DNA from: a virus
Lineage: Duplodnaviria; Caudoviricetes
Reading direction: 5' to 3' (one strand)
DNA: 59,969 bases
Virus record (IMG/VR): IMGVR_UViG_3300045806_000152
Span: 1 to 59,969 of that record
Shown in pieces: positions 54 through 44,334 of this stretch (position 1 is the first letter of the stretch; each line of letters begins with the position of its first letter). The position numbers and the translations under genes are program-made. The notes beneath the pieces were generated by a model. The model was not told the origin of the DNA. It did not search any database and worked only from the letters and a program-made list of their open reading frames with translations.

Positions 54-707
54 TAACTTAAATAAAATGTTTTATTGATTAAAAATTATATGAATAATTA
101 TGTAATTAAAATAAGATAAATTTTTATGTTATGCAAAATAAACCTGAATAATGAAACCTTTGATTATTTATTGATATTCCTTTTATAATTAAACTAATGG
201 TTAGCCTCCAGATAATAGATATACACTATATTCCTACCGGAATCCTGTAAGTCTTATCTGGAGGATATTACTTAATCTATAACTTTAATTGGGAGGTGTT
301 TTTGTGCTCCGCAATAACCCGATCATCCTAATAAGTCAACTAACAACCTATATAGGTTATTACTTGAGTAGAAGTTAGATTGAAGTCAGAAATAGATAAT
401 GATTAATACATATTGACATATAGGGCCTTTTAATATGATGCCATTGATATTATGTATTAGCAACTACTGCTTAGTAGACTAAAACCAAGTATATTCATCA
501 TGCAAATGTGCTTGAATAAAATAATCTACTACCCCTTTCAGGGTTAATTTAGCGGCTTCCTCACGGGTGCGACTTACTGAGTGGCTCAGGTTGCAGTTTC
601 TGGTAGGGTAGCGGCAGTTTTCGGAATTTTTGATGAGTGGGTCATGCGGGTAAAATTTCACTCGGATAATCTTTGAATATTTTTGGTGCAGTATCTTTAC
701 ATGAAAC

Positions 708-797
708 AAAAAAAAAAAAAATAGGCGGCCCTCCAGCTACTCTCCATAACCAACCCATTTAAGGGAAGATTATGGAGAGTAGCTGGAGGGCCGCCTA
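708..797 (-). terminator. Long hairpin with poly-U tail; intrinsic terminator ending the minus-strand gene block
   Basis: 28-bp perfect arms at 722-749 and 770-797, followed on the minus strand by a 14-nt T run (A run 708-721). Confidence 0.85.
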
Positions 798-2342: not shown

Positions 2343-3026
2343 TTAGTTATTCAAATTTGACACAAATTTACCGCTAGCATCAGTTTTAAATCCTTGATGA
2401 ATCATTGCTATCCCAAGTATTAATTGCTTATTTTCTTCACAAAATGCTGTGGCATCAGCTTCCATTTTATCAATCTCATCTTCGGAGAAATTTGTCCACT
2501 CTTCGGTTGAGTAAAACTTACAACCTATTTTAATATGGGTATCAAAGAAAAATACATTCCACCTCAAACCTGAAAGCTGTTTAAAACCTAGATTAAATGT
2601 AGCTTCCCCATAAGTAGCTCCGGACAAATCAGCTCTGGACAAATTAGCTCCGGACAAATAAGCTCCGAACAAATCAGCTTTGGACAAATCAGCTCTGGAC
2701 AAATCAGCTCCGGACAAATCAGTTTCGGACAAATCAGCTCCGGACAAGCTAGCTCCGGACAAATCAGCTTTGGATAACTTAGATCCATACAAATTAGCTC
2801 CGGACAAATCAGCTCCGGACAAATCAGCTCTGGACAAATCAGCTCTGGACAAATCAGCTCCGGACAAATCAGCTCTGGACAAATCAGCTCCGGACAAGCT
2901 AGCTCCGGATAAATTAACTTGTTGCGAAGCTGCAAGGCTTAAAGTAATTGCAATAGTATTATCTACATGATGATACGAAAAAATAACATTACCTGTAAAT
3001 CTATTTTTAATTTCTATGGTGTTCAT
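2343..3026 (-). CDS. Pentapeptide repeat protein
   Basis: Tandem A(D/N)LS(G/R) repeats encoded by 15-bp DNA repeats at ~2615-2915. Confidence 0.92.
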   Translation of the reverse strand: MNTIEIKNRFTGNVIFSYHHVDNTIAITLSLAASQQVNLSGASLSGADLSRADLSGADLSRADLSRADLSGADLSGANLYGSKLSKADLSGASLSGADLSETDLSGADLSRADLSKADLFGAYLSGANLSRADLSGATYGEATFNLGFKQLSGLRWNVFFFDTHIKIGCKFYSTEEWTNFSEDEIDKMEADATAFCEENKQLILGIAMIHQGFKTDASGKFVSNLNN

Positions 3027-3825: not shown

Positions 3826-4917
3826 TTACGATCTCCAATCTTTTGCAAGATCAATTATACGTGGGATAATATTAATACAATTCTTTTTCACACGCCCAGT
3901 TTTAGTTAAAAGATTTTCTTTCAAAATCTCTTGTGGAGATTTAATAATTACAGTAGCTCTAGACGATTGGTAGTGACTACTCGATGATATAAGACCATAA
4001 TATGAGGGGCTAACTATTACTGGTTTAGCTTTAGGATTTATCTGATGTAACCTATCCATATCATACTGTGATACAACGGGATAGGCATTATCTCCATTTT
4101 CTCTTTTAAATTCCAATAGTGCATTTATAGAATGCTCTTCATTATTACCTTTTGTTACTTTATGGTCTATATATTTAATATCTGATACATCAAGTTTTGC
4201 CATCTCTATTAAACGAAGACTATCTTTAGACTCAAGCCATGCCCCACTAGTTAGCCATATTAAATCAAAATCAGCAATAAGTTTGCGATCACGATCAAGG
4301 TTAATATATTGTGGTTTAATATCATACCCAAAAGCCATCTTCTCATCTTTTGAAACTTGTATTAGTAATCCACTGACAAATATATGGCCTTTGAATTGTG
4401 GGTCTATAAGGATATTACATTTAGAAGTCTTGATAATATCTGTTGGGTATGAGTTAAGATTAAGATTTATTTTTTGTAATTCTGAATACATCTCGGGTGT
4501 AATTCCACCTATACTAAATTTTACATGGTCAGCAATGTATTGGGGTGTAGCTTCTATATGGATACTTAGTACATTTTGCTGGTATTCCTCTGAGTACTCC
4601 TCTACTGGATACCACCTTTCACAATGACCAGTATCTACTGATACCTCATGGTTATTTCTAACAAGCACTAAAAGACCAATCTTATAGCCCTCACCATATT
4701 TTCCAATAGTTGTATCATCCCCTCTTTTTGTAGAATTACCAATTATTAAGCTACTACGTGCTATAAAAGAATCACTACTAGTAATCGTTATGTATTGGGC
4801 ATCTACATTGTAGTGATATGACCAATCACTAGTTGGATTAACAGTCCTTCTATCAATAGCATTTTGGAATATTTCCCGAATTGCTTCTTTGTAAGTCCAA
4901 TCGGGGACATAATCCAT
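3826..4917 (-). CDS. GHKL (HATPase_c / rIIA-MORC-like) ATPase domain protein
   Basis: EAIREIFQNAID (N box), GNSTK and IGKYGEGYKIG (G boxes). Confidence 0.8.
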   Translation of the reverse strand: MDYVPDWTYKEAIREIFQNAIDRRTVNPTSDWSYHYNVDAQYITITSSDSFIARSSLIIGNSTKRGDDTTIGKYGEGYKIGLLVLVRNNHEVSVDTGHCERWYPVEEYSEEYQQNVLSIHIEATPQYIADHVKFSIGGITPEMYSELQKINLNLNSYPTDIIKTSKCNILIDPQFKGHIFVSGLLIQVSKDEKMAFGYDIKPQYINLDRDRKLIADFDLIWLTSGAWLESKDSLRLIEMAKLDVSDIKYIDHKVTKGNNEEHSINALLEFKRENGDNAYPVVSQYDMDRLHQINPKAKPVIVSPSYYGLISSSSHYQSSRATVIIKSPQEILKENLLTKTGRVKKNCINIIPRIIDLAKDWRS

Positions 4918-5207: not shown

Positions 5208-5504
5208 TTAATTGTCTATATGCACATTACCGATTTTCTCTACAGGTGTTTCCCCTACAGGCTCTTCTATTGCAGCATATCTGAAATTACCTTTAAGCTT
5301 TGTTGCCACAAATGATCCTATACTTTTGTTCTCAAAAGCTTCCACAAATAATTTATGAGGAACATCGAAATAACGATATCTATTAGAATTTTTCCGAAAT
5401 ATTACATCCATAGTAAATTGTTCTTTATCATAGGAAATTTCAAGAATAGTTGAAGACTCTTTCTCTGAGTAAACACGACCAATTGGTGTAGCTTCAAGGT
5501 TCAT
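5208..5504 (-). CDS. KTSC domain protein
   Basis: SSTILEISYD...YRYFDVP...SIGSF pattern typical of KTSC. Confidence 0.85.
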   Translation of the reverse strand: MNLEATPIGRVYSEKESSTILEISYDKEQFTMDVIFRKNSNRYRYFDVPHKLFVEAFENKSIGSFVATKLKGNFRYAAIEEPVGETPVEKIGNVHIDN

Positions 5505-5911
5505 ACTTTATCCTGTTTTTGAATTATTACTTGTTTAGTAGTGATAATTAACTTATCTCCTCTGGATACTATTATTGGACTATCTAAAGAATATCCGTTT
5601 ATTATATCTATTCGAATTGAAATTTGTTCAGCTACTTCTGGAAAATTTATTGTTTTTAAAACATTAGTTACAGAATTGCTAAAACCACAAGTTTCATAAC
5701 CACATTCACACAAATAACCTTCACCTTTTGGTATTGGAGTAGCTAGCTCTTCGGTCATTTCAGTCTCCCCCACTTTTAATTCTTGATGGACTAGAATGGC
5801 AAACTGTTTCAACTCATCAAGCCACAGGTTCAAATCATCTACATCCATTAAACCTGATTCCTTCACTGCGTTTCTGACAATTTGCTCGAATTGCTGCGCG
5901 TTTGTAGTCAT
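5501..5911 (-). CDS. Hypothetical protein
   Basis: 136-aa ORF with SD upstream; stop overlaps the next start. Confidence 0.65.
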   Translation of the reverse strand: MTTNAQQFEQIVRNAVKESGLMDVDDLNLWLDELKQFAILVHQELKVGETEMTEELATPIPKGEGYLCECGYETCGFSNSVTNVLKTINFPEVAEQISIRIDIINGYSLDSPIIVSRGDKLIITTKQVIIQKQDKV

Positions 5912-5937
5912 TTCATTTCTCCAATAAAGTAGTACCG

Positions 5938-6018
5938 CAATTAAGACGTTAATCCGACCGCTTCCACAGGTCGCGGCACCTTATAGACACCGATTAAGGT
6001 GCCTAAATTACGTTAGGG
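5938..6018 (+). mobile_element. Degenerate attC-like site interrupted by a phage-type hairpin
   Basis: Ends in TACGTTAGGG (R' GTTRRR) and has a GC-rich gaccg..ggtc inner stem; left R'' box decayed. Confidence 0.45.
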
Positions 6019-6019
6019 C

Positions 6020-6197
6020 TTAACGTATTCCGCCGTATTCAAGCCCAAGAAATATCGCCCGTGCAGATTTTGCATACTCCTTTTTCGTTGCTAGTTCAGT
6101 ATTTTTTTTTTTCGATCTCGGATTGCAGAATCCTCACTTCAGCATCAAGCTCATCAGCCAATATTTGCATTTCTTTTTTATCTATCTTACTTTTCAT
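6020..6197 (-). pseudogene. Cassette ORF (~58 aa) frameshifted in an A11 tract
   Basis: MKSKIDKKEMQ...EIEKK; removing one A restores a frame ending in TAA at 6020-6022 next to the R' box. Confidence 0.55.
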
Positions 6198-6204
6198 GGT
6201 TCAA

Positions 6205-6227
6205 ATCCCCTCAACTCTACGTTAGAA
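6205..6227 (+). mobile_element. Right half of an attC site (L'/R')
   Basis: cccctcaactctacGTTAGAA closely matches the 3' half of attC 6932-7000 (cccctcaactaaacGTT). Confidence 0.7.
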
Positions 6228-6446
6228 GTCTTTTTGCTGAGTACCGGCGCTGATCCCCGGTTTATGGTTATTTCACGCATCAAAATCGTTTTGCTCATCC
6301 GGCTTGGTGTCAGGGAAATCCGTATGCCTACGGCTCGCTTCATCAACCTCACGGAACTATTGCCCACAACATCCTGATGCCACTTATTACCCACACGCGG
6401 AATACACCGCGAACGAATCAGCATTTCGCAACCTCAGCAAAAAGAC

Positions 6447-6529
6447 TTCTAACCCTACAATCAACCAGACCGCCGAAGCTGCCTGTGCATCTAAATCATC
6501 CAGCGCGGCGGCTCAACTATACGTTAGCC
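6447..6529 (+). mobile_element. Integron attC site
   Basis: TTCTAAC ... GTTAGCC ends with imperfect internal palindrome; R'' is complementary to upstream GTTAGAA (6221). Confidence 0.8.
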
Positions 6530-6604
6530 ACCATTGATATTCACGTCGAAGCGGTTTTGTTTCGCGCTTCTTGTTTGCTATCCATTTCTCTCCTTATCTC
6601 AATT

Positions 6605-6668
6605 GTGTAACCCATCATTCAAGCGGGACTGTGCAAAAGCGCGCAGCCCCTTAATTCAAACGTTAGGC
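6605..6668 (+). mobile_element. Integron attC site
   Basis: gtgTAACccatcattcaagcgggactg...cagccccttaattcaaacGTTAGGC: classic 59-be-like layout. Confidence 0.88.
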
Positions 6669-6905
6669 GTCAACCAGGTTGTAGTCATAAGATTCTTCAT
6701 CATGGTTATTTGGCGGCGCGATACTAATTTCTGCCACGTTCTGGCGCACACTCCCCCAGCAAACGCCCTCCACCTCTTCCGCCCACCCTTCTGCGGCATC
6801 ATCGCGGTATAGATCAATCGCACTTTGTGCGCGTGTTTTCGCTTCGTCTTCCGTTGCGTGTAATTGGAAACCATCGTCTGGATCATAACTAAAAAATTTC
6901 ATCAT
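6663..6905 (-). CDS. Acidic phage-type hypothetical protein carried as a gene cassette, antisense to the attC top strand
   Basis: 80-aa ORF with GAGGTG SD; its TAA stop lies inside the R' box; GC-richer than the flanking phage genes. Confidence 0.8.
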   Translation of the reverse strand: MMKFFSYDPDDGFQLHATEDEAKTRAQSAIDLYRDDAAEGWAEEVEGVCWGSVRQNVAEISIAPPNNHDEESYDYNLVDA

Positions 6906-6931
6906 TCACCTCTTCGTTGTAAGAAAAACCA

Positions 6932-7000
6932 GCCTAACCCATCGTTCCAGCAGGACTGCCGCGAAGCAGCCCGCGTCAGCCCCTCAACTAAACGTTCTCC
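6932..7000 (+). mobile_element. Integron attC site with non-canonical right end
   Basis: GCCTAAC (complementary to GTTAGGC at 6662) ... cagcccctcaactaaacGTTctcc. Confidence 0.85.
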
Positions 7001-7106
7001 TTCTTTGACTTCTGGGACTACGTTCATGCTTTCGTTCTCCTTCGGTTATTCTGATAACCTTGTTAGTTCTTTTGATGCTTCAATATAATCGAATTTCTTA
7101 CTCATA

Positions 7107-7403
7107 TTAATATCCTTTATTATTGTAACCCATTAATGTATCATTTGCTTCCATCGCCTTTATTAACCATTCTGCCATTTCTTCAGAAATCATTTTAGCC
7201 AGTCTCTTTCGTTCCATTCTTACTTTACAAACAGTTACCACATCTGAACAAAATATACGACTTACAGTTGGAGAACCCTCTTTAAATAAATCAAGAGGTT
7301 GTATTGCATCTCTGATTATACTTTCAGGTAATTCTTTATCTATAGCTACATCTCTATTTGAAGGCCATTGACCTATTTGAAGGACAATCTTTAACTTAGA
7401 CAA
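7107..7403 (-). CDS. Hypothetical protein
   Basis: TTG start immediately after the upstream stop, with SD. Confidence 0.65.
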   Translation of the reverse strand: MSKLKIVLQIGQWPSNRDVAIDKELPESIIRDAIQPLDLFKEGSPTVSRIFCSDVVTVCKVRMERKRLAKMISEEMAEWLIKAMEANDTLMGYNNKGY

Positions 7404-7862
7404 TTAAATCTCCTTATCTTCATGACCTAGAATATAATCAGGTCTCCTTGAATCATTGCTTGGGCAAACTGCAAGAATACGCCAACCCTTGTCTAACATG
7501 CTTTGTAACTCATCAGTGCATGCATCATTTAGATTAGTTACCTTCTTAGTCATGTATAAATTATGATTAGGAACTGACACATTAGTTATATTTGTAGAGT
7601 TACTTGCTCGTTGCTCAAGGTCTCTTGGGTAGTTTAAACCTTTTACTTTAGATATTAATGGTTTAATTCCAAGTTTAGTGAGGTAATCTATTTCATTAAC
7701 ATCTGCAATTACCTCACCTATATTATAATAACTAAATTTTTCAGGCTCTTCAGGTATATCCCAATCATCAAATTTAGCCCTTAATTCTTGATAAACCTCT
7801 ACAGTTAAACTTTGTACAATACTGTTTGATTCATATGGTAAGGTTACTCTAAATATTATCAT
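7404..7862 (-). CDS. Hypothetical phage protein
   Basis: C-terminal DACTDELQ..LDKGWRILAVC...RRPDYILG block. Confidence 0.75.
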   Translation of the reverse strand: MIIFRVTLPYESNSIVQSLTVEVYQELRAKFDDWDIPEEPEKFSYYNIGEVIADVNEIDYLTKLGIKPLISKVKGLNYPRDLEQRASNSTNITNVSVPNHNLYMTKKVTNLNDACTDELQSMLDKGWRILAVCPSNDSRRPDYILGHEDKEI

Positions 7863-7957
7863 ATCATCTCACTCGTTTATATTCTTCATTAGCTCTCTCA
7901 ATAAACTTCCAGTCCAGTGCGAATTCTTCTTTACAGACTGCTGGCTCATGCTCCATT

Positions 7958-8737
7958 TTAATTTTCCTCCAATTGATATCCGAAAGGTATTTTACCATCT
8001 ACTATATCTTGCCAATGCTTATAAACTGGACTCGTTGCATTTATTGGTTCATAAGGTTTAGATGGAGCGAATTCAAATCCAGCTTTCTTTTTAACGTCTT
8101 CGACTTCCCAATCATTACTTGTACCCATACTTAGATGATTATAATACTCAGGTCGCTCTAAGTAGTCAGGGAATTTCTGAATAAACTTATCGATATCTAA
8201 TGAATACTTTACTGCAGCATGTGTATAATCAGCATATTCTATATCTGCATTATTTATTCTATCACTAGCCTCCTTTTGTAGAGCTTTCCAAATATCCTTA
8301 CTAAGATTTCTGTCATTAAAATAGTAATCATACTGTGGGTAAAGCATTTTATCATAATCAATGATTTCCATACCTGTTTTATTACTGCTATAATTCCATT
8401 GATGAATAAACTGCCACATAACAGCACCTGCCTGGAATCCTGTAATTCCACCTTGCTCTGATCTGTCTAAAGCCACAGCACCAGCCTTAGCTGCTGCAGC
8501 CATAGCATGACAAATAGTACCATAGTCATGTTTGTAGCTGTTTGAAAGTTTATCAATAAAATACTTTAATTTATTTGAGTCAATTTCTGAGATTTCTTTA
8601 TCCCATTCCTCAAGCACTTCTTTAAATCTATCAGTACCTTCTTCTAATATTTCTGGCTCTATTATCTTTTGTTTAGTTACTAGAAATAACGTTAAAATAC
8701 ATAATACAATCAATACGATAAATATAATTGTGTCCAT
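7958..8737 (-). CDS. Hypothetical phage protein with N-terminal membrane anchor
   Basis: Hydrophobic N-terminus; HDYGTICHA and GGITGFQAG motifs. Confidence 0.75.
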   Translation of the reverse strand: MDTIIFIVLIVLCILTLFLVTKQKIIEPEILEEGTDRFKEVLEEWDKEISEIDSNKLKYFIDKLSNSYKHDYGTICHAMAAAAKAGAVALDRSEQGGITGFQAGAVMWQFIHQWNYSSNKTGMEIIDYDKMLYPQYDYYFNDRNLSKDIWKALQKEASDRINNADIEYADYTHAAVKYSLDIDKFIQKFPDYLERPEYYNHLSMGTSNDWEVEDVKKKAGFEFAPSKPYEPINATSPVYKHWQDIVDGKIPFGYQLEEN

Positions 8738-8747
8738 TGCTACTCCG

Positions 8748-8802
8748 AAAAAAAAAGTGAAAATAAACCCATTATTAACCTTTAAAAGGCTTATAATGGG
8801 TT
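8748..8802 (-). terminator. Intrinsic terminator-like hairpin
   Basis: aacccattat/ataatgggtt arms plus A9 run on the + strand. Confidence 0.65.
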
Positions 8803-8971
8803 GTTAAAAATTTTATCTATTGCAGCTCCTTAATTCTTTCTCTAAGATACTCTATTTCTTTATTAGCATCTTTTAAAGCTTCTGATAGGGTCTCAAATGT
8901 TGCTTGTAACTGCCTATCATTAGTTTCATATTCTTTCTTTAATTCACTTAGCCTTTTTTCTAAGGCCATTG

Positions 8972-9334
8972 CTACTTGGTTATAGCCTGACATATTCCTC
9001 TTTCTAATATAAGAGATCTTAAATTTTCTTTTGAAACATGTACAATAACATTTGCAGACTCTTGGAAAATGCAACCACCTGTAGGAGACCTTTTTGTACC
9101 TTTTGGAATAGGTGTTGGCTGACCAATATTAGAAGGTACTAAACCAAGATTCCTAATTTTACCTAAAAGACTTGAGTAGCTTCTTTTCATCTTTTCAGCA
9201 ATATCCCTACTAGGAATTTTATTAAAGTTATCTATAAGAAACTCTTCCTCTTCTTTTGAATACATACCTTTATTTAAACCATCTTCCCCAATACTTGGTA
9301 TTGCATTACCTACAGCTCTCTTAGCTTTTGACAT
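8972..9334 (-). CDS. HTH/Myb-like DNA-binding protein
   Basis: YSKEEEEFL...DIAEKMKRSYSSL...RNLGL pattern. Confidence 0.65.
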   Translation of the reverse strand: MSKAKRAVGNAIPSIGEDGLNKGMYSKEEEEFLIDNFNKIPSRDIAEKMKRSYSSLLGKIRNLGLVPSNIGQPTPIPKGTKRSPTGGCIFQESANVIVHVSKENLRSLILERGICQAITK

Positions 9335-9340
9335 TTAAAA

Positions 9341-9592
9341 TTAACCTTTAATAATTTTTTTACAATGATGTTGTGCTATATTATATCTCATCATATCCAA
9401 TATACCTTCAAATACTGGCTTTCCTTCTTCAGATACTTCATTCAGATAAAATCTAAAATCTGGGTGTTGTTTACCAGACTCCAATGAAATATACGCTTTA
9501 ATATGATTAATATTTTCTGGATTAAATTCAAATGTTTTTGCCTCTAATTTACGTTTGAAATTTGCCAGATGTGTGCTTCCTGAGTTGATCAA
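9341..9592 (-). CDS. Hypothetical protein
   Basis: TTG start with strong AGGAGG SD. Confidence 0.6.
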   Translation of the reverse strand: MINSGSTHLANFKRKLEAKTFEFNPENINHIKAYISLESGKQHPDFRFYLNEVSEEGKPVFEGILDMMRYNIAQHHCKKIIKG

Positions 9593-9662
9593 TTATTTCC
9601 TCCTTTATATAAGTTATTGAATTATCCACCAAATGAATTGAATCAAATGGTGGATAATTCAT

Positions 9663-9992
9663 TTACGCAGTAGCAACATCCCCAAATTTCTTACGATTGA
9701 ATGCTGTTTTCTTTGGTGTAAATATTACCAATGTGTTCTTCTCACCAATGTCTTTACCACTCTCTGCATCAACTACTTTAACACGATTGCTATCAGTAAC
9801 ATTTTGGTCATAGAATGCAACACGCTTTACAGCCTTATCATAGCGTGTATGAATTGAAGCCTTGTGTGCAACATCTGCAGCCTTAGAGAAATCATTAACT
9901 GCTTTGGAAGCAAAACGAGGATTAAGCTTGCCAGCAATCATGAGTTGTGTTGTGGCAATCATTTGAGATACGAGAATATCAGCTTGTTTCAT
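9663..9992 (-). CDS. Hypothetical protein, paralog of 10040-10309
   Basis: Shared MKQ.D.L...GK(L/I)NPR layout. Confidence 0.7.
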   Translation of the reverse strand: MKQADILVSQMIATTQLMIAGKLNPRFASKAVNDFSKAADVAHKASIHTRYDKAVKRVAFYDQNVTDSNRVKVVDAESGKDIGEKNTLVIFTPKKTAFNRKKFGDVATA

Positions 9993-10039
9993 TTGAGACT
10001 CCTTTTTAGTTGAATTGTACTACATGGAAAAAAAAAAAA

Positions 10040-10309
10040 TTATTTCTGCAGCTTGTCGGCTTCTTCATAGTCCATAACAGCAGCCTCTATCATTTTATTA
10101 TTTTCTTCATCACTAATATCTTTATCAAATAATGTAACATATGGTATCTTCTTTTGGTGTCTTTGATGTGCAGAATGTTCAGCACCTGCCTTAACAACTG
10201 AGTCAGTCATACTAGCTACTAATAGCCCATATCGTGGATTAATTTTACCTTTAGATATTGCCATTAATTGAGCATAAAGCATATTAGTTAGATGGTCTAT
10301 CTGTTTCAT
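10040..10309 (-). CDS. Hypothetical protein, paralog of 9663-9992
   Basis: See paralog. Confidence 0.7.
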   Translation of the reverse strand: MKQIDHLTNMLYAQLMAISKGKINPRYGLLVASMTDSVVKAGAEHSAHQRHQKKIPYVTLFDKDISDEENNKMIEAAVMDYEEADKLQK

Positions 10310-11459
10310 TTTTATTAGTCTCCTTCTTTTGTCTATTTAATTTTTCTTTTAATAGTAGTGAACATTTTTCCTCAGGTGATAAAGAAAGCCTTTTAAGTCT
10401 TTGCTTTTCTGATATAGCTCTTATCTCTTCATCCGTTTGGTTAGCTCTCCTTTTGACACGATACTCCTCTTGTTTCTTATTATCTACTAATTTTTGTTCA
10501 GGTGTTCTAAGAGATCTTCTAATGCGTTGTTTCTCCAACTCAGCTTGCCTTTTTTCAGCAGGTCTTTTTGATCTCCTCTCACGCTTATCGATATTAAAAC
10601 AAACTTTACATTTTGGTTCTAATCCGGTTGGATAAGCTTTATTAATGCTAAAATGAGAAATCTCAGTATCATTGCAGACCTTACAACAAACCTCATTCAC
10701 ATTAATTAGTTTTTTACATTCACGCTTTAATTGAAGAGCAGTTCTCTTATAGCTTATAAGCTCATTTGTAACGTCTTCCTTTAAAATTTTGAATTGTTCT
10801 ACAACTAGTTTTTTTACATGGTGATCCAATAGCCAAGGACCAGCTTGTATAGTAATACTCGTAGGTTTCCTATCATGTATCCTATAAAAATTACACCATT
10901 TATTTTTCTTGAGTTCTCTATCCAATAGAATAACTTCCCTATATGCTAAAATCTCTTCAGGTGTATGATATATGAATGGTAATCCCTTTTTCTTTCTCAT
11001 TACATTAAGCTGCGTATTAATATAACCATCAGGTAAGTCATCAAATCTCTTCTTATTTGCTAGGATATTAATCTTGCGTAGAGTACTATACCTAGCTGGA
11101 GAAGAATTTTTAATTCTTACTTTTTCATAATGGCAAATTTTGCATACACCATGACCTTTTAGAAATTCATCTGATGATTTAATCAAACCACAAGCCCCTT
11201 TACATTTTCTTTCTTTCTTTAGGTTTTCTTGGCATTTAAGACAGTGTTCCCCTTTTGCAGAATTCTCTCTAAATGCATTACGTGGTTTGATCTTTCCGCA
11301 ATTCTTACATTTCTTAGAATTTGGTAAAGGGTGATAGTGTTTCCTATAGCATATCTTACATCTTGTGTAGTATACTTTACTTTTTCCGTAAGTCCCAAAG
11401 TTAAATATTGGTAAGATTATTTTGCAATCAATACATATTTTTTCTTTAGTTGTTTCCAC
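10284..11459 (-). CDS. Basic multi-zinc-ribbon (CxxC repeat) protein
   Basis: Repeated CxxC...CxxC units and K/R-rich coiled C-terminus. Confidence 0.75.
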   Translation of the reverse strand: METTKEKICIDCKIILPIFNFGTYGKSKVYYTRCKICYRKHYHPLPNSKKCKNCGKIKPRNAFRENSAKGEHCLKCQENLKKERKCKGACGLIKSSDEFLKGHGVCKICHYEKVRIKNSSPARYSTLRKINILANKKRFDDLPDGYINTQLNVMRKKKGLPFIYHTPEEILAYREVILLDRELKKNKWCNFYRIHDRKPTSITIQAGPWLLDHHVKKLVVEQFKILKEDVTNELISYKRTALQLKRECKKLINVNEVCCKVCNDTEISHFSINKAYPTGLEPKCKVCFNIDKRERRSKRPAEKRQAELEKQRIRRSLRTPEQKLVDNKKQEEYRVKRRANQTDEEIRAISEKQRLKRLSLSPEEKCSLLLKEKLNRQKKETNKNETDRPSN

Positions 11460-11482
11460 ATATTACTCCTTCAGTTATTTAA

Positions 11483-11558
11483 TGGTGGAACCTACTGGGA
11501 TTGAACCAGTGACCTAATGATTATGAGTTGTCTGCTATACCATATGAGCTAAGGCTCC
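11483..11558 (-). tRNA. tRNA with CAU anticodon (Met or Ile2), encoded CCA, mismatched anticodon stem
   Basis: GGAGCCT/AGGTTCC acceptor, ACTGG-TTCAATC-CCAGT T arm, CTCATAA loop, ACCA end. Confidence 0.8.
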
Positions 11559-11797
11559 TAAATATAGTAAGACAGCTATCCATTGCGTTTGATATTTCTT
11601 TTAAGGCTCTATTTTCTGCTTGACATATTGCCCCCTAGTAAATATTGATCTCGTAATTAACAATGCTTTTTATGGACGTTTGCTTAAACGCTATTCACAG
11701 AAAGAATGAGTAATTGGGACAGTCTGTAGCGCATTACAAGTTTGATAGATGGGTTCAATAACCACCCGAAAAGGATCGAAGGAGTGTCCAACCCAAC

Positions 11798-11860
11798 AAA
11801 AAAAAAAAAAGAGAGAGTTATACTCAAAATGGTACCCAATTAAGGGTACCAAAAGGAGTT
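11798..11860 (-). terminator. Hairpin with poly-U tail
   Basis: ggtaccc-aattaa-gggtacc (11831-11850) with A13 run at 11798-11810. Confidence 0.65.
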
Positions 11861-11863
11861 ACA

Positions 11864-12118
11864 CTAATTAGATGTTTTAAGTGCCTTTTTCAATATTCTG
11901 GATAGAGCAGCAAATGATTTTATTTTCTCTTTAGTATTTCTTAAATCATTTCGCATACGATTCATATAAACAAAATCGTCGTATGATTCAGCGATTTCTG
12001 GGTCACAATAAACGTATACATCCCTAATACGTTCTTTCAATTTAAATGCATACTCTTCATTCTTGCAAATGTTAGATCGAACCAACTCTAACAGTTTTTG
12101 TTTCTCTGATTCTTTCAT
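11864..12118 (-). CDS. Hypothetical protein
   Basis: 84-aa ORF with SD. Confidence 0.6.
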   Translation of the reverse strand: MKESEKQKLLELVRSNICKNEEYAFKLKERIRDVYVYCDPEIAESYDDFVYMNRMRNDLRNTKEKIKSFAALSRILKKALKTSN

Positions 12119-12368
12119 TTTTGTACCTTCTTTAATTAATAATCGGTTGAGGCATACACAACTACTTCTTCATACCTTGTCCTAAGAACAGCTACTGCCC
12201 ATTTCCTGATATTTTCATCTGTTGTAAACTTCACAATACGTATTACTTCATATGTTGATAGTTCTTTTGCCATTTTACTCTCCTTGATAAAATTTAAAGC
12301 CCCACCAATATAACCTTTTAGGTCATAATAGTGGGGCGGGGTTTTAAAAATACTACTGCTACAATCTA

Positions 12369-12454
12369 AGGTTCATCACGGTAGGTACTCGAAACCTACA
12401 ACACAGCGTCCCCTTGGGGTTTATCGCCTCTCTGCCTCTTGAGTTACGTGATGA
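12369..12454 (-). ncRNA. tRNA-like RNA with atypical anticodon arm and T loop
   Basis: TCATCACG/CGTGATGA acceptor-like stem, D-arm-like ACTC..GAG, GTAGG-TTTCGAGTA-CCTAC T arm. Confidence 0.6.
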
Positions 12455-12458
12455 ATAA

Positions 12459-12527
12459 TGGTGTGCAGTCTTTAACTAGGGATTATTAGCCGAGGGAGGG
12501 CGGCTGTCCTAATAAGGCGTACTGCAC
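12459..12527 (-). ncRNA. Putative CCA-ended small RNA with CCCUCCCU loop
   Basis: GTGCAGT/ACTGCAC stem followed by ACCA; inner AGCCG-CCCTCCCT-CGGCT hairpin. Confidence 0.5.
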
Positions 12528-12740: not shown

Positions 12741-13334
12741 CTAAGCCTTAGCAGCAGCAGCCTTAGCAGCCTTCTCAGCAGCCTTCTTAGCAGTATAAGC
12801 TGCCAATGCTTCTGGGCCAGCAGCCTTAGCTGCACGATATTCATCCAGAGCAGCTGTTGTAGAAGCTGGAACAACACGCTTTACCAAACCTGCATCATAT
12901 GCCAATACGAGGCTATCCTTATTGGCAACCAACCATGCAGACATATCAGCATTATCTCCAGTCAGTACATTCAAGTTACCAAGAACGATAGCTGTCTGTT
13001 CCTCTTCCGCAACACGTTTAACCAATGGCCATTTGAAAGATTCTACAATTGCATCAGCATTGTCCTTCAAGAAGCCACTTTCAACCTTATCCAAAGCAGC
13101 CTTCAATGCCTTACGCTCTTGTTTAGTAACACGCCGTGATGCACCTGAATCCAATGCGGTCAGGATTTCTTCTTTCTTTTCCAAGAGCCAAGTAGCTGTA
13201 TCAGCATCCTTAACTAAAACCTTCAATGCGCCCAAAACTTGTGGCTGACGTTGGATATCAGCTACTTCGCGTTGAGACATAACTTCAGCTTTAACAAAAG
13301 AACCATCAGCGAGCTTAACGAATTGTTGTGCCAT
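12741..13334 (-). CDS. Probably abundant helical protein with Ala/Lys-rich (histone-like) tail
   Basis: Ends AKKAAEKAAKAAAAKA; GCT/AAG-biased codons; follows a promoter motif. Confidence 0.8.
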   Translation of the reverse strand: MAQQFVKLADGSFVKAEVMSQREVADIQRQPQVLGALKVLVKDADTATWLLEKKEEILTALDSGASRRVTKQERKALKAALDKVESGFLKDNADAIVESFKWPLVKRVAEEEQTAIVLGNLNVLTGDNADMSAWLVANKDSLVLAYDAGLVKRVVPASTTAALDEYRAAKAAGPEALAAYTAKKAAEKAAKAAAAKA

Positions 13335-13438
13335 TTTTATTTCTCTTTCTTACCTATTAAGGTATATTTAGAACTCTTGCTATATTGCAAGTTTATTCTT
13401 CTGGAAGTCTATTTCCATTTGAGCTTATCTTCCTGCTT

Positions 13439-20256: not shown

Positions 20257-23200
20257 TTACCTTACTGGGCAAACACCACCTGCGCAATCACTATCACCTT
20301 CATCAAAGTTTAATGAGGATATTTTTGTAATAATACGAGTCTTAGCTACAAGCTCATTGTATTCTTCTTCAGTTACTTCTTCATAGGGTGCTTGCTTGAA
20401 GCCATGATCAGAATGAAGAAGGAATGAGAGACTCTTATGATTATCTTTATAATTCTTAAACAGGTATTCCTTAATTGCAGGTAATTCTTCTTTCTTGTAG
20501 TATATTGTGCAGCTTACTGAATTATCACTCCACTCAGTTTGCATACGTTTAATCCAAGCAAGTTGATCCAAAGCAGTCATGTCTTTTGCTAGGATTGTAC
20601 CTTTTGGATAAGCATAGGGGAATGTTACAATGAGTGTATTACGATCTTCTTTACCATCAAATCCTACTTGGTATTCTATTGGATACCCATGATCACGACA
20701 TAGTTGAACTAAAGGATGTTCAGCTGCTATCCGAATTCTTCTATACATGAATTGAGCGTAACCGGGGTGGATACCAGGTGTTACGCCAGGAATTAGTGAT
20801 AAAGTATTATGGCTTACATAACTACCAGCAATATAACAATTATTTACTTTCACTTCTATATCAAAAGTGTAGTTTTCTGATTCAGTCTTATTAACTACAG
20901 TATCAAAACTAAAATTATCTAAACCAATTGAGTCTAATTGCTTCCAAGTACTTTTTACTTCATTCTTAATATACCTATCGTCTGCATACCTTCCTTTTCT
21001 CTCTGATATCCAATATCTCATCTTAGTACCAAATGAAGACTCTGTTGGAGGCATTTCACTAACTTTTGCGTCTATCCCTAAATAACGAAGGATTACAGGT
21101 AGCTGCTGCGCAAGTTTATATGAAACTGTAGTCCATGTTCGAGTATCTTTATTCTTATAACCATCTCCAGCAAAGAATCCCTCTAAAAATGACAATATTA
21201 TATTTTTAGGTGATTTTCTTATAATCAAAGGTATTTCTAGATTTTCAGATTTTTGTTTCAATAAACCATTAGCAGATAGCCAATTTAGAATAGGCTGGCT
21301 AGTTGCATAAAGGTCTAAATTAATAGTACCTGGACGTTCATATAATTTCGCCTCATAATTTAATTCAGATTTAAATAGAGATATAAGGTTATTCATATGA
21401 TTAAGTTTTGTGGTTGTATTACCTGCAATACGTATACCTTTTGTATGATTACTACCATCTGCAAAGTATGAACCCAAAATAAAAGCTAAGCCTTCTGAGA
21501 TAAACTCTGGTTGAAATATAGGTGTAGATCTACCACCAAATACTATTTTAGTTAAAGGTTGACTGGAACCACCATTATATCCACCAACTTTATATGGTAT
21601 CTTATCGCCTACTTCTATATCTTTCATCGCTTTCCAAATATACTCACCAGAGTCTGTCAATACACGATATTGATGATTATGTGTACTTTCTAAAAGTATC
21701 CCACCGTCTGTTACTATTTTAATAGTGTCTGCAATACCATTAACAAAGAACTTAGACGCCATTTCATTAGATCTCTCTTGCGCGATAGGTAATTCTATAT
21801 CTTGCCAGTCTTCGCCTTCAGTATCACCGATTTCATCTAAATATAATAAACCATTTTCAGTCAATAAAAGAGTCTCTCTTATACTACAACCACTAGGCTT
21901 GATCGTAGTAAGCTTAATAGACTCATTAATATTATGAATTTCACTATATCTTTTATCGAAATCACGTAAGTACTCATACCCTTCATTTAGCCAACTGAGT
22001 TGTTCTTCTGATGCCTGTAGTACACCTGTTAGCCCAATTCCCATGCGCATATTTTTGTGCACAATATCTTCTGTATCAGGTTGGTGGCAAGGTAATAGTA
22101 GTGAATGTTTGCATACTCGGTATAGCAATTCAAGTACATCAATAAATTCCTCCTTTGATTCAATATTTGGAAGGAATACCTCTGCGAGACAACATGTCTC
22201 ATACGAGGCCAAGCTTTGTTCTGCACCTTTATTTGTTACTCCAGATTTTAATCTGGGGTTAAGTCATTTCTGCTTAACTCTCTATATCCCTATAGAGAAC
22301 GGACTGTATCATCACCCATAGGTTGGCTTATGGGTTTCTTTGTCAGTCTCTCGCGCCTCTTTAAAACGATATTCCAGTATCGTTTAGGTGTTGCGTCGGA
22401 AGTTGTCTGTTCTAGAGTTTCTCCGATATTCAGATTTAATCGATATACATTACTGCATATAGCCGCTGGCATTCAACGGATTATAACCTTCTACATCAGG
22501 GTCTGGATAGTTGTCATCTCCCAATCGCCCATATTTACGGGAAAGTGGGAGATTAATTAATCCAAACGGTTCACCTTTGCCTTCGTAGCCCTCCCAAAAG
22601 TAGTCGTGAACATCTTCCATGTTATCTACAGCTACACTATTATTTGACATTGCACGCCAAGATGGTACATTTCCAAGAGACCAATGTTTACTAAGAAGAA
22701 ATTCAACATCACTAGGATCCCCTATAGCAATTTGAGCACTTCTGCGAACGTTTCCTGCAACAATAATATACCCAATAATATTCATGATATCTAAAGCATC
22801 AATTGAGCGTATCTTTTTACCACGGCGTTTCATTAGTATCTCCGAGATCTTTTGGATACCCCAACAAAGTTCTTCACAACCAGAAGCGACTCCGCCAAAA
22901 CCTTTAATAGGTTTACCTTTACTACGTATAGCTTGAGTAGAATAAGTAAAGGTTCCTTTTTCTTTCTTGGTGGACATGAAGGCTGCTTTAAGCGTTTTAC
23001 CAAGAAGCCGAACCCACCCTTCTCTTGAATCAGGCACAATAAAGTCAGCTCCGCCATCATCAAATCTTGTAGGGGCACTAAACCAATCACGAACTACTGG
23101 AAGCTTTTCCACATGCTTACGCTGAATATTATAACCCACACCTGATCCCAGAGCTAACATATCCATAGCCCAAATGAATGGTGTAATAGGATGATCTACA

Positions 23201-23529
23201 ACAGTAAAGGCACAATTTTGAAGAGAAGCTAGACCTAAATTATCAACTGTTTTTGTACCAAGCTGCCACCAGAATCTGCCTGCTACTGATCCTTTTAATT
23301 TCAACAAGTATTCTCTAAGACGATTTTCTTCATCTGCAGTAAAACCTATTTTAAGTTGGTCTTTGCATGCGTTTATTACCCGTGCTACTGTGTCTGGAAA
23401 CTCCTCTGTCTCTGCCGTATCTGAATAATCTTCAGGGTTTAATTTACGACTATAAGTGCGTTTATAAGTTAAATAGCCAACAGTACTAAAGGGTGTTTCA
23501 ATATTTTCAGGGTTATTTTTGTTATGCAT
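20257..23529 (-). CDS. nrdJ: Class II (AdoCbl-dependent) ribonucleotide reductase; exons 23529-22476 and 22226-20257; contains an intein
   Basis: TYKRTYSR, NCAF, VAGNVRRSA, spliced GYNP-C-AEQ, TTIKPSG/TLS, C-terminal CAGGVCP. Confidence 0.93.
20806..21888 (-). mobile_element. Intein (361 aa) with LAGLIDADG endonuclease in NrdJ
   Basis: KPSG|CSIRET ... YVSHN|TLS junctions; LGSYFADG and FLEGFFAGDG motifs. Confidence 0.92.
22227..22475 (-). mobile_element. ORF-less group I intron (249 nt) in nrdJ
   Basis: P1 CCGU/GCGG with U-G pair at the splice site, R-like AGAGACUG, S-like GAUACAGUCC, terminal G; splicing restores the TGT Cys codon. Confidence 0.88.
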
Positions 23530-44078: not shown

Positions 44079-44334
44079 TGGCTATCCTTAATAAGTAATC
44101 ACCATGACAACGTGCAGGTTTGCATGAACATTTTAAATCTTTTCCTTTTAGGTATTTCTTGATATCTGCTTTTAATGTTGGATGATTCTCTACATAAGCT
44201 ATAAACTTATTACATACATCATGTCTAGAACCATCCTTTCCAATTTCATACGGGTTTCCCCAAGGTGTATTTCTACCTATATAAACAGCATCTATAGGGC
44301 AGTTTTTATTATGTCTATTATAAATGTCTGGCAA
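44071..44334 (-). CDS. DUF4326 protein
   Basis: VYIGR.TPWGNPY...LKGKDLKCSCKP..CHGD. Confidence 0.9.
   Translation of the reverse strand: MPDIYNRHNKNCPIDAVYIGRNTPWGNPYEIGKDGSRHDVCNKFIAYVENHPTLKADIKKYLKGKDLKCSCKPARCHGDYLLRIANE

What the first reader, a model, noticed from the sequence alone, without database searches (positions are those of the whole stretch)
5938..7043. Integron attC cassette array in a lytic phage, with no integrase in the window and ORFs antisense to attC
Seen: three complete attC-like sites (6447-6529, 6605-6668, 6932-7000), a half site (6205-6227) and a decayed site ending at 6018, all in the same orientation in a GC-richer island. Two cassettes have a left box exactly complementary to the preceding right box (TTCTAAC/GTTAGAA; GCCTAAC/GTTAGGC), the signature of IntI-excisable cassettes. 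Known: attC sites are single-strand hairpin substrates of IntI, and cassette ORFs normally run on the top strand. Here the ORFs run on the bottom strand, matching phage transcription, and one stop codon lies in the R' box. No tyrosine recombinase is visible in the window. Inference: the phage acquires or shuffles small accessory genes using a host integron integrase, a possible phage-side cassette system.
Basis: partly seen in the sequence, partly recalled or inferred. Interest (0 to 1): 0.9.

Follow-up and report, generated by a model that had tools for sequence, protein, structure and literature searches.

The report
Mirror-image integron cassettes in a phage
A small, partly decayed cluster of genuine integron recombination sites of the kind found in methylotrophic bacteria (Methylophilaceae) sits in an uncultivated phage, its genes pointing the opposite way to those of bacterial integrons, and one of its cassettes recurs in unrelated phage fragments, which suggests that phages swap small genes with a host enzyme.

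Summary
They lie in a 45-50% GC island within a ~32% GC phage contig. The sites belong to the attC family of Methylophilaceae chromosomal integrons, which nominates the host family.

Cassette 3 (6663-6994, 80-aa ORF on the - strand) is a discrete unit. It recurs at 76-87% identity in at least six other phage or metagenome contexts, and in L104 and L107 homology breaks at the G|TT crossover points on both sides.

ORFs are antisense to attC here and in most other phage-borne arrays of this family (22 antisense, 3 sense, 12 ambiguous). Bacterial arrays are the reverse (8, 184, 70).

No integrase was found in any of the nine viral fragments searched.

attC clusters without integrase (CALINs) in phages, virulent ones included, are already published (Qi et al. 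2023), so the core claim is a new member of a known kind. The mirrored orientation and the phage-to-phage sharing look new. The array is partly decayed, and "lytic" is unproven.

The parts
5501..5911 (-). Left backbone gene (136 aa, AT-rich, no family)
   Evidence: ORF list. No PHROG or Pfam hit. Contigs of runs X2 and X3 run from this gene into the island without a single difference.
5912..7000 (+). GC-richer island holding the cluster of attC sites (a CALIN). The attC top strand is the + strand.
   Evidence: GC 0.41-0.51 against about 0.32. All three model hits lie here, on the + strand.
5984..6018 (+). The left arm is not recognisable.
   Evidence: 29-33-nt matches at 85-86% to bacterial array loci L063 and L015. 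No model hit. A strong local hairpin at 5940-6030 has z -4.7.
6096..6197 (-). 33-aa ORF, AT-rich, starting 8 nt from the half site. Status uncertain.
   Evidence: ORF list; sequence. Not tested further.
6205..6227 (+). Half attC: right arm (L'-R', GTTAGAA) only. The crossover point is 6221|6222.
   Evidence: 6207-6225 are 100% identical to right arms of attC sites in L104, L105 and L045. Member of direct-repeat family D1 together with sites 1 and 3.
6222..6523 (+). Cassette 1 (302 nt). It has no credible gene. It is bounded by a 21-nt perfect inverted repeat (6221-6241 / 6433-6453) that contains R' and R''.
   Evidence: Inverted repeat I1. The only long antisense ORF (6194-6424, 76 aa) has no homologue apart from the window's own copy and a 50-aa fragment 95% identical over half its length. 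No PHROG hit.
6447..6529 (+). attC site 1 (R'' TTCTAAC, R' GTTAGCC), degenerate
   Evidence: R2 E 1.1e-3 with 5 non-standard pairs. R1 gives only a partial hit at E 9.8. The left arm is 84-91% like attC arms in L111 and L063.
6524..6662 (+). Cassette 2 (139 nt), essentially an attC with a short leader. Its boxes do not match (GTTAGCC against GTGTAAC).
   Evidence: Sequence. Read by eye: on the - strand only a 14-codon ORF behind an AAGGAG-like site.
6605..6668 (+). attC site 2. Both arms are canonical for the Methylophilaceae family; only the terminal loop differs.
   Evidence: R1 E 2.5e-18 and R2 E 8e-15, all pairs standard. The arms equal the consensus of alignment A1.
6663..6994 (+). Cassette 3 (332 nt), a discrete mobile unit carrying the 80-aa ORF in antisense
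   Evidence: Homology to L104/L105 spans 6660-6996 at 87% and to L107/L108 6608-6996 at 76-78%. The alignments diverge right after GTT at the 3' end, and the upstream attC sites differ.
6663..6905 (-). 80-aa ORF (ORF80), phrog_21696, function unknown. Its stop codon TAA lies in the R' box.
   Evidence: PHROG E 2e-19. 11 full-length homologues at 67-90% identity plus one 52-aa fragment. No Pfam hit. Model pLDDT 78; no PDB match at E<=0.001; one uncharacterised viral protein at E 2e-5.
6932..7000 (+). attC site 3 (R'' GCCTAAC). Its R' reads GTTCTCC because the letters after G|TT are phage backbone.
   Evidence: R1 E 1.8e-8, R2 E 2.6e-8. Carries the compensatory change GTT/AAC where site 2 has ATT/AAT.
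6994..6995 (.). Right junction of the array with the phage backbone, at the canonical G|TT crossover
   Evidence: Homology with other copies of the cassette ends here. An X2 contig bridges it with 0 differences. An X5 32.8-kb contig, 99% identical to 6995-7700, carries 59 unrelated letters before 6995.
6902..7027 (-). 41-aa ORF that starts in the backbone behind a good ribosome-binding site and reads through attC 3. Possibly the head of a phage gene interrupted by the insertion. Uncertain.
   Evidence: ORF list. The 11-nt repeat CGTTCTCCTTC occurs at 6993 and 7033. No PHROG hit.
7107..7403 (-). Right backbone gene (98 aa, AT-rich)
   Evidence: ORF list. Covered by X2, X4 and X5 contigs.

Best explanation
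Positions 5912-7000 hold a small, partly decayed cluster of integron gene cassettes with no integrase nearby (a CALIN). It sits in the accessory-gene region of an uncultivated, low-GC phage.

The recombination sites are genuine attC sites of the family used by the chromosomal integrons of Methylophilaceae, so the phage most likely meets, and probably infects, a member of that family.

The cassettes do not look like borrowed bacterial cassettes. They belong to a phage-associated pool in which the gene lies antisense to its attC, the mirror image of bacterial arrays. Once inserted with attC antisense to phage transcription, such genes are read together with the phage genes.

Inferred mechanism: during infection the host integron integrase (IntI) folds the attC bottom strand, which here is the phage coding strand. 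It then recombines it with other attC sites, or with simple G|TT secondary sites in phage DNA. In this way single cassettes are inserted, excised and passed between unrelated phages that visit the same hosts. The junction at 6994|6995 is such a secondary-site insertion.

In this phage the array has since decayed through deletions and point changes.

Shown: the identity and family of the sites, the orientation, the unit character of cassette 3, and the junction position. Inferred: that IntI did it, that the integrase is the host's, and that the cassettes are expressed.
For: (1) Three model hits, all in the island, from models built without window sequence.

(2) Covariation in the attC family: 13 of 18 pairs change on both sides and 96.3% of cells are paired, against 80.9% in shuffles (0 of 500 shuffles reach this). 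Caveat: the alignment was fitted to the model.

(3) Family and host.
- The 24-nt left-arm pattern occurs in 85 genome stretches. 62 of the 80 listed rows are named as Methylophilaceae genera.
- Every one of the 50 aligned sites also carries the right arm, which was not part of the pattern and equals that of site 2.
- 4 of 5 such genomes have an integron integrase above the NCBIfam cut-off, against 0 of 14 control genomes.
- attC hits lie beside intI in 3 of 4 IntI loci.

(4) Unit character.
- Cassette 3 recurs in G304, G305, L104/L105, L107, L108 and L109/L110.
- Homology stops at the crossover points.
- G304, a 94-kb fragment with 33-36% GC, shares only 2 of the window's ORFs of 60 aa or more: this cassette's protein and a DUF4326 protein.

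(5) Orientation.
- Phage-context arrays: 22 antisense, 3 sense, 12 ambiguous, of 37 cassettes.
- Bacterial arrays: 8, 184, 70, of 262. Fisher p = 1.6e-20.
- 9 of 10 antisense ORFs but 0 of 10 sense ORFs have PHROG hits: RecE-like exonuclease, DNA methyltransferases, primosomal protein, glucosyltransferase.

(6) ORF80 was found in only 1 of 301 genomes of the family, and there too antisense to attC-like sites, on a 2-kb contig.

(7) Junction.
- G|TT fits the GWT core of IntI secondary (attG) sites (bioRxiv 10.1101/2022.09.11.507474, section read).
- A near-identical relative carries different sequence to the left of the same point.

(8) Not an assembly artefact. Contigs from X2 bridge both junctions and contigs from X3 bridge the left one, with 0 differences.
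Against: - No integrase was seen, and no recombination was observed.
- The left end of the island is not a clean crossover. It is a decayed attC followed by a half site, so at least part of the structure arose by something other than IntI.
- Sites 1 and 3 have 3-5 non-standard pairs, and the boxes of cassette 2 do not match. This speaks for decay rather than current use.
- Thermodynamic folding of the bottom strands alone does not stand out from shuffles: z -1.1, +0.2 and -1.6.
- The orientation tally is not made of independent events. The ORF80 cassette is counted in several contigs, ORF length is a crude caller, and 12 of 37 cassettes are ambiguous.
- One IMG/VR contig (L116, from an isolate genome) has sense cassettes.
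- The phage's GC (about 32-34%) is below that of most Methylophilaceae, so the host assignment rests on attC type alone.
- In G304 the ORF80 cassette lacks its own attC at the backbone side. That junction is not an IntI junction.
Confidence: 0.6

Rival explanations
1. En bloc capture. The phage picked up a ready-made stretch of a host chromosomal integron array by illegitimate or homologous recombination, as described for Vibrio anguillarum phages. The block is passive cargo that is now decaying, and IntI played no part in putting it there.
For: The GC of the island (0.41-0.51) is host-like. The left boundary is not at a crossover point, and there are truncated and degenerate sites. Capture of fragments of chromosomal integrons by phages is documented (PMC9892861, section 3.1).
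Against: The genes are antisense to attC, unlike 184 of the 192 classifiable bacterial cassettes of this family. ORF80 belongs to a phage protein family and was found in 1 of 301 genomes of the family. The right junction is exactly G|TT, and a close relative differs from that point on. No bacterial locus fetched holds cassettes 0-2 or the block, but only about 90 loci were searched, not whole collections.
Confidence: 0.2
2. The phage carries its own integron integrase in the unsequenced 56% of its genome. The array would then be part of a complete phage-borne integron rather than a parasite of the host enzyme.
For: The contig is only 44% complete by CheckV. Complete integrons in phages and prophages have been reported (PMC9892861, abstract and section 3.1).
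Against: There were 0 integrase matches in all nine viral records that hold such arrays. PF00589 was run on G000 and G304-G306. TIGR02249 was run on G000 and G307-G311. Completeness of these records is 11-72%. No attI-like or intI-adjacent end is visible, and the array abuts ordinary phage genes on both sides.
Confidence: 0.1
3. Artefact. The island is a chimeric assembly of phage reads with reads from bacterial integrons of the same sample, or the 'sites' are chance palindromes or terminators.
For: attC repeats are abundant in the same metagenomes. The summed contig depth over 6920-7000 jumps to 277 in X5, and many contigs end or diverge inside the sites. Such repeats invite misassembly.
Against: Contigs of run X2 bridge the left boundary (5723-6012) and the right junction (6960-7317). 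A contig of run X3 covers 5777-6638. All have 0 differences. The same cassette sits in other phage contigs. Model E-values reach 1e-18.
Confidence: 0.03

Closest known systems
[quoted passage not shown]
   Same: There are at least two attC sites with cassettes in a phage genome that has no integrase nearby. Virulent phages are included in that paper, where five of six tested attC sites were recombined by IntI1. The authors propose that phages carry and spread cassettes, and that cassettes (for example orphan methyltransferases) may help phages.
   Different: That paper screened sequenced phage genomes and found 17 CALINs. Its main text holds none of the words 'antisense', 'opposite', 'IMG' or 'Methylo' (its supplements were not seen). 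Here the attC sites are of one host-family type, the genes are systematically antisense to attC, and the same cassette is shared by unrelated phage fragments with breaks at G|TT.
Sedentary chromosomal integrons of Methylophilaceae (Methylotenera, Methylophilus, Methylobacillus and relatives)
   Same: The attC family is the same. The arms of site 2 equal the consensus, with the same unpaired bases in the left arm. R'' and R' complementarity between neighbouring sites is also shared.
   Different: Bacterial arrays lie beside intI and their genes are sense to attC (184 sense against 8 antisense). The phage array has no intI, and its genes are antisense and phage-like. One search for integron, Methylophilaceae and attC found 3 papers. 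I saw only their listing, and none is about this family's integrons by title.
IntI-catalysed cassette insertion at genomic secondary sites (attG; isolated cassettes called SALINs): Loot et al., bioRxiv 10.1101/2022.09.11.507474 (abstract, section on site properties, and passages read)
   Same: A cassette is joined to non-integron DNA exactly at G|TT (GWT core). Small CALINs are proposed to arise by insertion rather than as remnants of integrons.
   Different: That work was shown for bacterial chromosomes. In that text 'phage' occurs only for lambda integrase. Here the target is a phage genome.
Effect of array orientation on cassette excision: Richard et al. 2024, Sci Adv, PMC13108822 (passages read)
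   Same: Which strand carries the attC bottom strand decides how easily the site folds. With the bottom strand on the lagging-strand template, excision rises sharply.
   Different: That work inverted a whole Vibrio cholerae array experimentally. Here the inversion is relative to the genes and is natural. The replication direction of the phage is unknown, so the link is an inference.
PeSL mobile regulatory cassettes of T4-type phages (recalled from memory; no call)
   Same: Short repeated stem-loop elements flank small accessory genes in plastic regions of phage genomes and are thought to mediate shuffling of those genes.
   Different: As recalled, PeSLs are promoter plus stem-loop units that recombine by homology. 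They are not integron attC sites and need no integrase.

Membership tests
Integron attC site | Inverse core sites R'' (RYYYAAC) and R' (GTTRRRY) at the two ends | tested here: met
   Site 1 has TTCTAAC and GTTAGCC. Site 2 has GTGTAAC and GTTAGGC. Site 3 has GCCTAAC and GTTCTCC; the last four letters lie beyond the crossover and belong to the backbone. The consensus definition is recalled and also quoted in PMC9892861.
Integron attC site | Imperfect hairpin (R box, unpaired spacer, L box, variable loop) with extra unpaired bases on the '' arm, which mark the bottom strand | tested here: met
   The structure was written from the bacterial alignment, with unpaired C, C and A in the left arm. Site 2 keeps all 18 pairs and the three unpaired bases. 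Site 3 keeps the unpaired bases and has 3-4 non-standard pairs. Site 1 has 5 non-standard pairs. Family covariation: 13 of 18 pairs change on both sides. Free-energy z-scores alone are not significant.
Integron attC site | Match to an attC covariance model | tested here: met
   The model used by IntegronFinder was not available. Two family-specific models built here from non-window sites give E 8e-15, 2.6e-8 and 1.1e-3 (R2), and 2.5e-18 and 1.8e-8 (R1). Strand specificity: L001 scores 91 bits on + and 13 bits on -. The Rfam search at gathering thresholds found nothing in the island.
Integron gene cassette | R'' of a cassette's attC is complementary to the R' that precedes the cassette (circular permutation at G|TT) | tested here: met
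   Met for 2 of 3 cassettes (cassettes 1 and 3) and failed for cassette 2. In bacterial arrays of the family it holds in 218 of 271 pairs, against 39 by chance.
Integron gene cassette | A discrete mobile unit found in different contexts, with boundaries at the crossover points | tested here: met
   Met for cassette 3 only. Homology with L104/L105 spans 6660-6996, the upstream attC sites differ, and the sequences diverge right after GTT. For cassettes 1 and 2 no other copy was found in the loci fetched.
Integron gene cassette | Promoterless ORF in the same sense as attC, expressed from Pc | tested here: not met
   ORF80 is antisense, and so are most cassettes of phage-borne arrays of this family. 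This is the main departure from the bacterial norm.
[quoted passage not shown] | Two or more attC sites close together, no integron integrase nearby | tested here: met
   Three attC hits lie within 554 nt. PF00589 and TIGR02249 find nothing in the 59,969-nt record. The two-site minimum is as used in PMC9892861.
Complete integron | intI gene with adjacent attI and Pc | tested here: not met
   No intI in the record. attI and Pc were not searched for. The record is 44% complete.
Integron attC site | Recombined by an integron integrase as folded bottom strand | not testable with these tools
   This needs an attC x attI or attC x attC assay. There is only indirect evidence from junction positions.

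The most novel reading that the evidence does not exclude
Phages of Methylophilaceae and related hosts maintain their own mirror-image integron cassettes. Phage accessory genes (methyltransferases, DUF4326, ORF80 and others) are bracketed by attC sites placed antisense to the gene. The host's IntI can then cut and paste them between unrelated phages, which would make a phage-to-phage gene exchange network run on a borrowed recombinase.

The mirrored orientation puts the recombinogenic bottom strand on the coding, non-template strand. If replication follows transcription, that is also the lagging-strand template, the configuration shown in Vibrio to raise excision sharply. On this reading phage arrays are built for fast turnover rather than storage, and phage genomes may be a place where new cassettes are born.
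Probability: 0.3. Interest if true: 0.85.

Novelty: new variant of a known kind. Interest (0 to 1): 0.62.

Why it matters
Integrons are regarded as bacterial gene-capture devices. Where cassettes come from, and how they travel between lineages, is still open. Phage-borne attC clusters were first reported in 2023 from a handful of sequenced phages.

This locus adds three things that can be tested directly.
- The attC type points to a host family for an uncultivated phage.
- One and the same cassette sits in unrelated phage genomes and is bounded at the crossover points. This is the signature of integrase-mediated exchange among phages, not just from host to phage.
- The gene-to-attC orientation is reversed in phages, which suggests a distinct population of phage-adapted cassettes.

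If confirmed, host integron integrases would be a driver of mosaicism in phage accessory regions. Phages would be both a vehicle and a possible source of integron cassettes.

Tried and rejected
- Nucleotide searches of 5400-7600 (near) and 5900-7100 (distant) against 50,697 phage records found nothing. A 69-nt canonical attC found one weak match at E 0.1.

- Rfam at gathering thresholds gave only a tRNA.

- Free-energy folding of each site on both strands gave no significant z-score for sites 1-3. Folding energy alone is a poor test, because in an array R' belongs to the next cassette.

- Close relatives of the phage backbone were sought in IMG/VR with two flank proteins (3826-4917 and 7958-8737). 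None was found. The locus could therefore not be compared among assembled relatives. Only the contigs of public runs gave a glimpse.

- DNA polymerase has its best match at 35% identity, to roseophage DSS3 and a pelagiphage. This gives no useful placement.

- ORF80 function. There was no Pfam hit and no PDB fold match at E<=0.001. One uncharacterised viral protein matched at E 2e-5. Function stays unknown.

- The 76-aa ORF of cassette 1 has no homologue beyond the window's own copy and a fragment 95% identical over half its length. It was rejected as a gene.

- Cassettes 0-2 have no nucleotide or translated match in any locus fetched.

- From: a joint 6668->6906 in X5 (side 23 letters) is too short to trust. 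Stretches without cover in X2-X4 (6677-6919, and beyond 7000 in X3) say nothing.

- My first orientation tally (and with 12-nt overhang) missed ORFs that end deeper inside attC. It was replaced: 30-nt overhang, ORF at least 1.3 times the longest opposite-strand ORF and at least half of the cassette. Cassettes under 120 nt or over 1000 nt were dropped. L095, L105, L109, L110 and L115 were left out because they are duplicates, partial, or weakly hit.

Supplements of PMC9892861, which hold the tables of phage CALINs and their boundaries, could not be seen and may bear on whether antisense cassettes were already tabulated.

Full report
WHAT IS THERE

The window is a complete IMG/VR record of 59,969 nt, linear, and 44% complete by CheckV. 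Of its 36 ORFs of 150 aa or more, 35 lie on the - strand. They include a family-A DNA polymerase, a primase/helicase, ribonucleotide reductase and an exonuclease. GC is about 0.28-0.35, except for a few patches. One patch is the island at about 5700-7050, with GC 0.41-0.51. The DNA polymerase is only 35% identical to its best match among 50,697 phage records. The island has no nucleotide match in those records.

ARE THE SITES REAL attC SITES?

A 24-nt pattern from the left arms of sites 2 and 3 occurs in 85 stretches of a collection with one genome per prokaryote species. Of the 80 listed rows, 62 are named Methylotenera, Methylophilus, Methylobacillus, Methylovorus, Methyloradius, Methylopumilus or Methylophilaceae. 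The rest are mostly unnamed Pseudomonadota and a few other Betaproteobacteria.

In those loci the pattern is followed by a terminal loop and a right arm ending in ACGTTAGNN. This part was not in the pattern, and it equals the right arm of site 2.

Four of five such genomes encode an integron integrase above the NCBIfam cut-off, against none of 14 control genomes. In three of four IntI loci, attC hits lie a few hundred bases from intI. These are therefore the attC sites of the family's chromosomal integrons.

I wrote the hairpin structure from the bacterial alignment: R box, unpaired spacer, an L box with three unpaired left-arm bases, and a loop. From it I built a covariance model on 50 bacterial sites (R1). 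A broader model was built on 88 bacterial, viral and metagenomic sites, none from the window (R2).

Over the whole window, both strands, filters off:
- R1 finds 6605-6668 (E 2.5e-18) and 6932-7000 (E 1.8e-8).
- R2 finds these two (8e-15 and 2.6e-8) and also 6447-6529 (1.1e-3).
- Nothing else scores below E 0.26.

The family shows strong covariation. 13 of 18 pairs change on both sides, and 96% of cells are paired against 81% in shuffles, on an alignment fitted to the model.

Site 2 is flawless. Site 3 has 3-4 non-standard pairs but carries a compensatory GTT/AAC where the consensus has ATT/AAT. Site 1 has 5 non-standard pairs. The half site is a true right arm, with 19 nt identical to arms elsewhere. 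The 'decayed' site is at best a right-arm remnant. Free-energy z-scores alone are unremarkable.

CASSETTE STRUCTURE

The crossover points (G|TT) are 6221|6222, 6523|6524, 6662|6663 and 6994|6995. They define cassettes of 302, 139 and 332 nt.

R'' is the exact complement of the preceding R' for cassettes 1 and 3. For cassette 1 the complementarity runs on for 21 nt. Cassette 2 fails. In bacterial arrays of the family the rule holds in 218 of 271 pairs, against 39 by chance.

Cassette 1 has no credible gene, and cassette 2 is little more than an attC. Cassette 3 carries an 80-aa ORF on the - strand (phrog_21696, E 2e-19). Its TAA is the TTA of the R' box.

CASSETTE 3 IS A MOBILE UNIT SHARED BY PHAGES

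Homologues of the 80-aa protein (67-90% identical) exist in metagenomes. Only 1 of 301 genomes of the family holds one.

Its DNA recurs in two other IMG/VR records and in five further metagenome contigs. Homology to L104/L105 spans window 6660-6996 at 87%. In the alignments of L104 and L107 the upstream attC sites differ, identity starts at ACGTTAGGC, and it ends right after the GTT of the cassette's own attC. Homology to G305 also starts at the R' box (6660) but runs only to 6957, inside attC 3.

G304 is a 94-kb, low-GC fragment. It shares only this protein and a DUF4326 protein with the window, and it holds the cassette in its own GC-richer island. Other contexts carry phage genes: RecE-like exonuclease, primase, primosomal protein, methyltransferases.

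THE MIRROR ORIENTATION

In every one of these contexts attC lies on the strand opposite to the gene. An unbiased scan of IMG/VR with a right-arm pattern found six more contigs with arrays of 2 to 8 attC hits.

One rule was applied to all arrays: the longest ORF must be at least 1.3 times the longest on the other strand and cover at least half of the cassette, and only cassettes of 120-1000 nt count.
- Phage-context arrays: 22 antisense, 3 sense, 12 ambiguous.
- Bacterial arrays: 8 antisense, 184 sense, 70 ambiguous.

In two balanced tests, 9 of 10 antisense ORFs and 0 of 10 sense ORFs matched phage protein families.

The tally is not made of independent events, since ORF80 is counted several times. 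One contig from an isolate genome (L116) is sense. The contrast is nevertheless large.

JUNCTIONS AND ASSEMBLY

To the right, attC 3 meets AT-rich backbone exactly at G|TT, so that R' reads GTTCTCC. This fits the GWT core of secondary (attG) sites used by integron integrases.

Contigs of other public runs confirm the assembly. X2 bridges the left boundary (5723-6012) and the right junction (6960-7317). X3 covers 5777-6638. All have no difference from the window.

In X5 a 32.8-kb contig is 99% identical to 6995-7700 and carries 59 unrelated letters before 6995. A close relative therefore has other content from that very point.

The left end (5912-6221) is not a clean crossover and holds truncated sites. 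In G304 the cassette lacks its own attC on the backbone side. Processes other than IntI recombination have also shaped these loci.

INTEGRASE

PF00589 and/or TIGR02249 find nothing in the window or in eight other viral records with such arrays. All of them are fragments (11-72% complete), so a phage-borne integrase is not excluded. The simplest reading is use of the host enzyme, which the candidate hosts have.

WHAT IS KNOWN

Qi et al. 2023 (PMC9892861; abstract, sections 3.1 and 3.4 read) reported integrons and 17 CALINs in phages, virulent ones included, and showed that IntI1 recombines five of six phage attC sites. The category is thus published. Their main text does not mention antisense orientation, IMG/VR or Methylophilaceae (supplements not seen).

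Two literature searches found nothing on mirrored phage cassettes or on shared cassettes among phages. These were word searches of open-access text only.

Richard et al. 2024 (PMC13108822, passages read) show that placing the attC bottom strands on the lagging-strand template raises excision sharply. In the phage the bottom strand is the coding strand. If replication runs with transcription, that is the recombination-prone configuration. This is my inference, not a result.

VERDICT

As filed, the finding is a new member of a known kind. The mirrored orientation, and the same cassette in unrelated phages, make it a new variant worth a systematic survey.

Confidence that these are real attC sites forming a CALIN is about 0.95. 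Confidence that host IntI moved at least cassette 3 into this phage is about 0.6. Confidence that a distinct phage-adapted cassette pool exists is about 0.3-0.45.

Noticed in passing
window 20257-23529 (-): Ribonucleotide reductase looks split. ORF 22450-23529 matches positions 25-369 of the phrog_367 profile (701 long). ORF 20257-22212 matches positions 520-697 at its C-terminal end and an endonuclease family (phrog_4645) at residues 239-352. This may be an intron or intein with a homing endonuclease.
   Followed up: no
window 44071-44334 (-): An AT-rich, apparently native 87-aa DUF4326/phrog_464 gene is 40% identical to an ORF that sits as an antisense cassette between two attC sites in the unrelated phage fragment G304 (L098 12350-12640). 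A phage gene family thus occurs both as an ordinary gene and as a cassette.
   Followed up: partly
L099 (= G305) 387-749 (+) and 7109-12521 (-): A 15-kb, 55% GC phage-like contig (RecE-like exonuclease, primosomal protein, DNA methyltransferase) has two divergent gene blocks. In both blocks attC sites lie antisense to the genes, so attC orientation follows gene orientation.
   Followed up: partly
window 25317-28976 (-): A 1219-aa primase/helicase ORF has additional regions (about residues 333-581 and 826-1066) that match PHROGs labelled 'terminase large subunit'. This is probably a shared ATPase fold or an inserted element.
   Followed up: no
window 11486-11558 (-): One tRNA gene (Rfam tRNA, 47.7 bits), next to a 391-aa ORF with HNH/endonuclease VII matches at 10284-11459.
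   Followed up: no
window 2551-3000 and 12751-13350: Two further GC-richer patches (0.42-0.46) have no attC model hit. They may be other horizontally acquired genes.
   Followed up: no
window 6993-7003 and 7033-7043: An exact 11-nt direct repeat CGTTCTCCTTC lies at the attC 3/backbone junction and again 40 nt downstream. On the - strand it reads GAAGGAGAACG, a ribosome-binding-site-like motif. Its meaning is unclear; target preference or chance are both possible.
   Followed up: no
window 5300-7700 in public runs: The laid runs that hold this stretch (X2-X5) are labelled permafrost and peat metagenomes. In X5 a contig also replaces 5493-5766 (inside the left backbone gene) with 162 other letters.
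   Followed up: no
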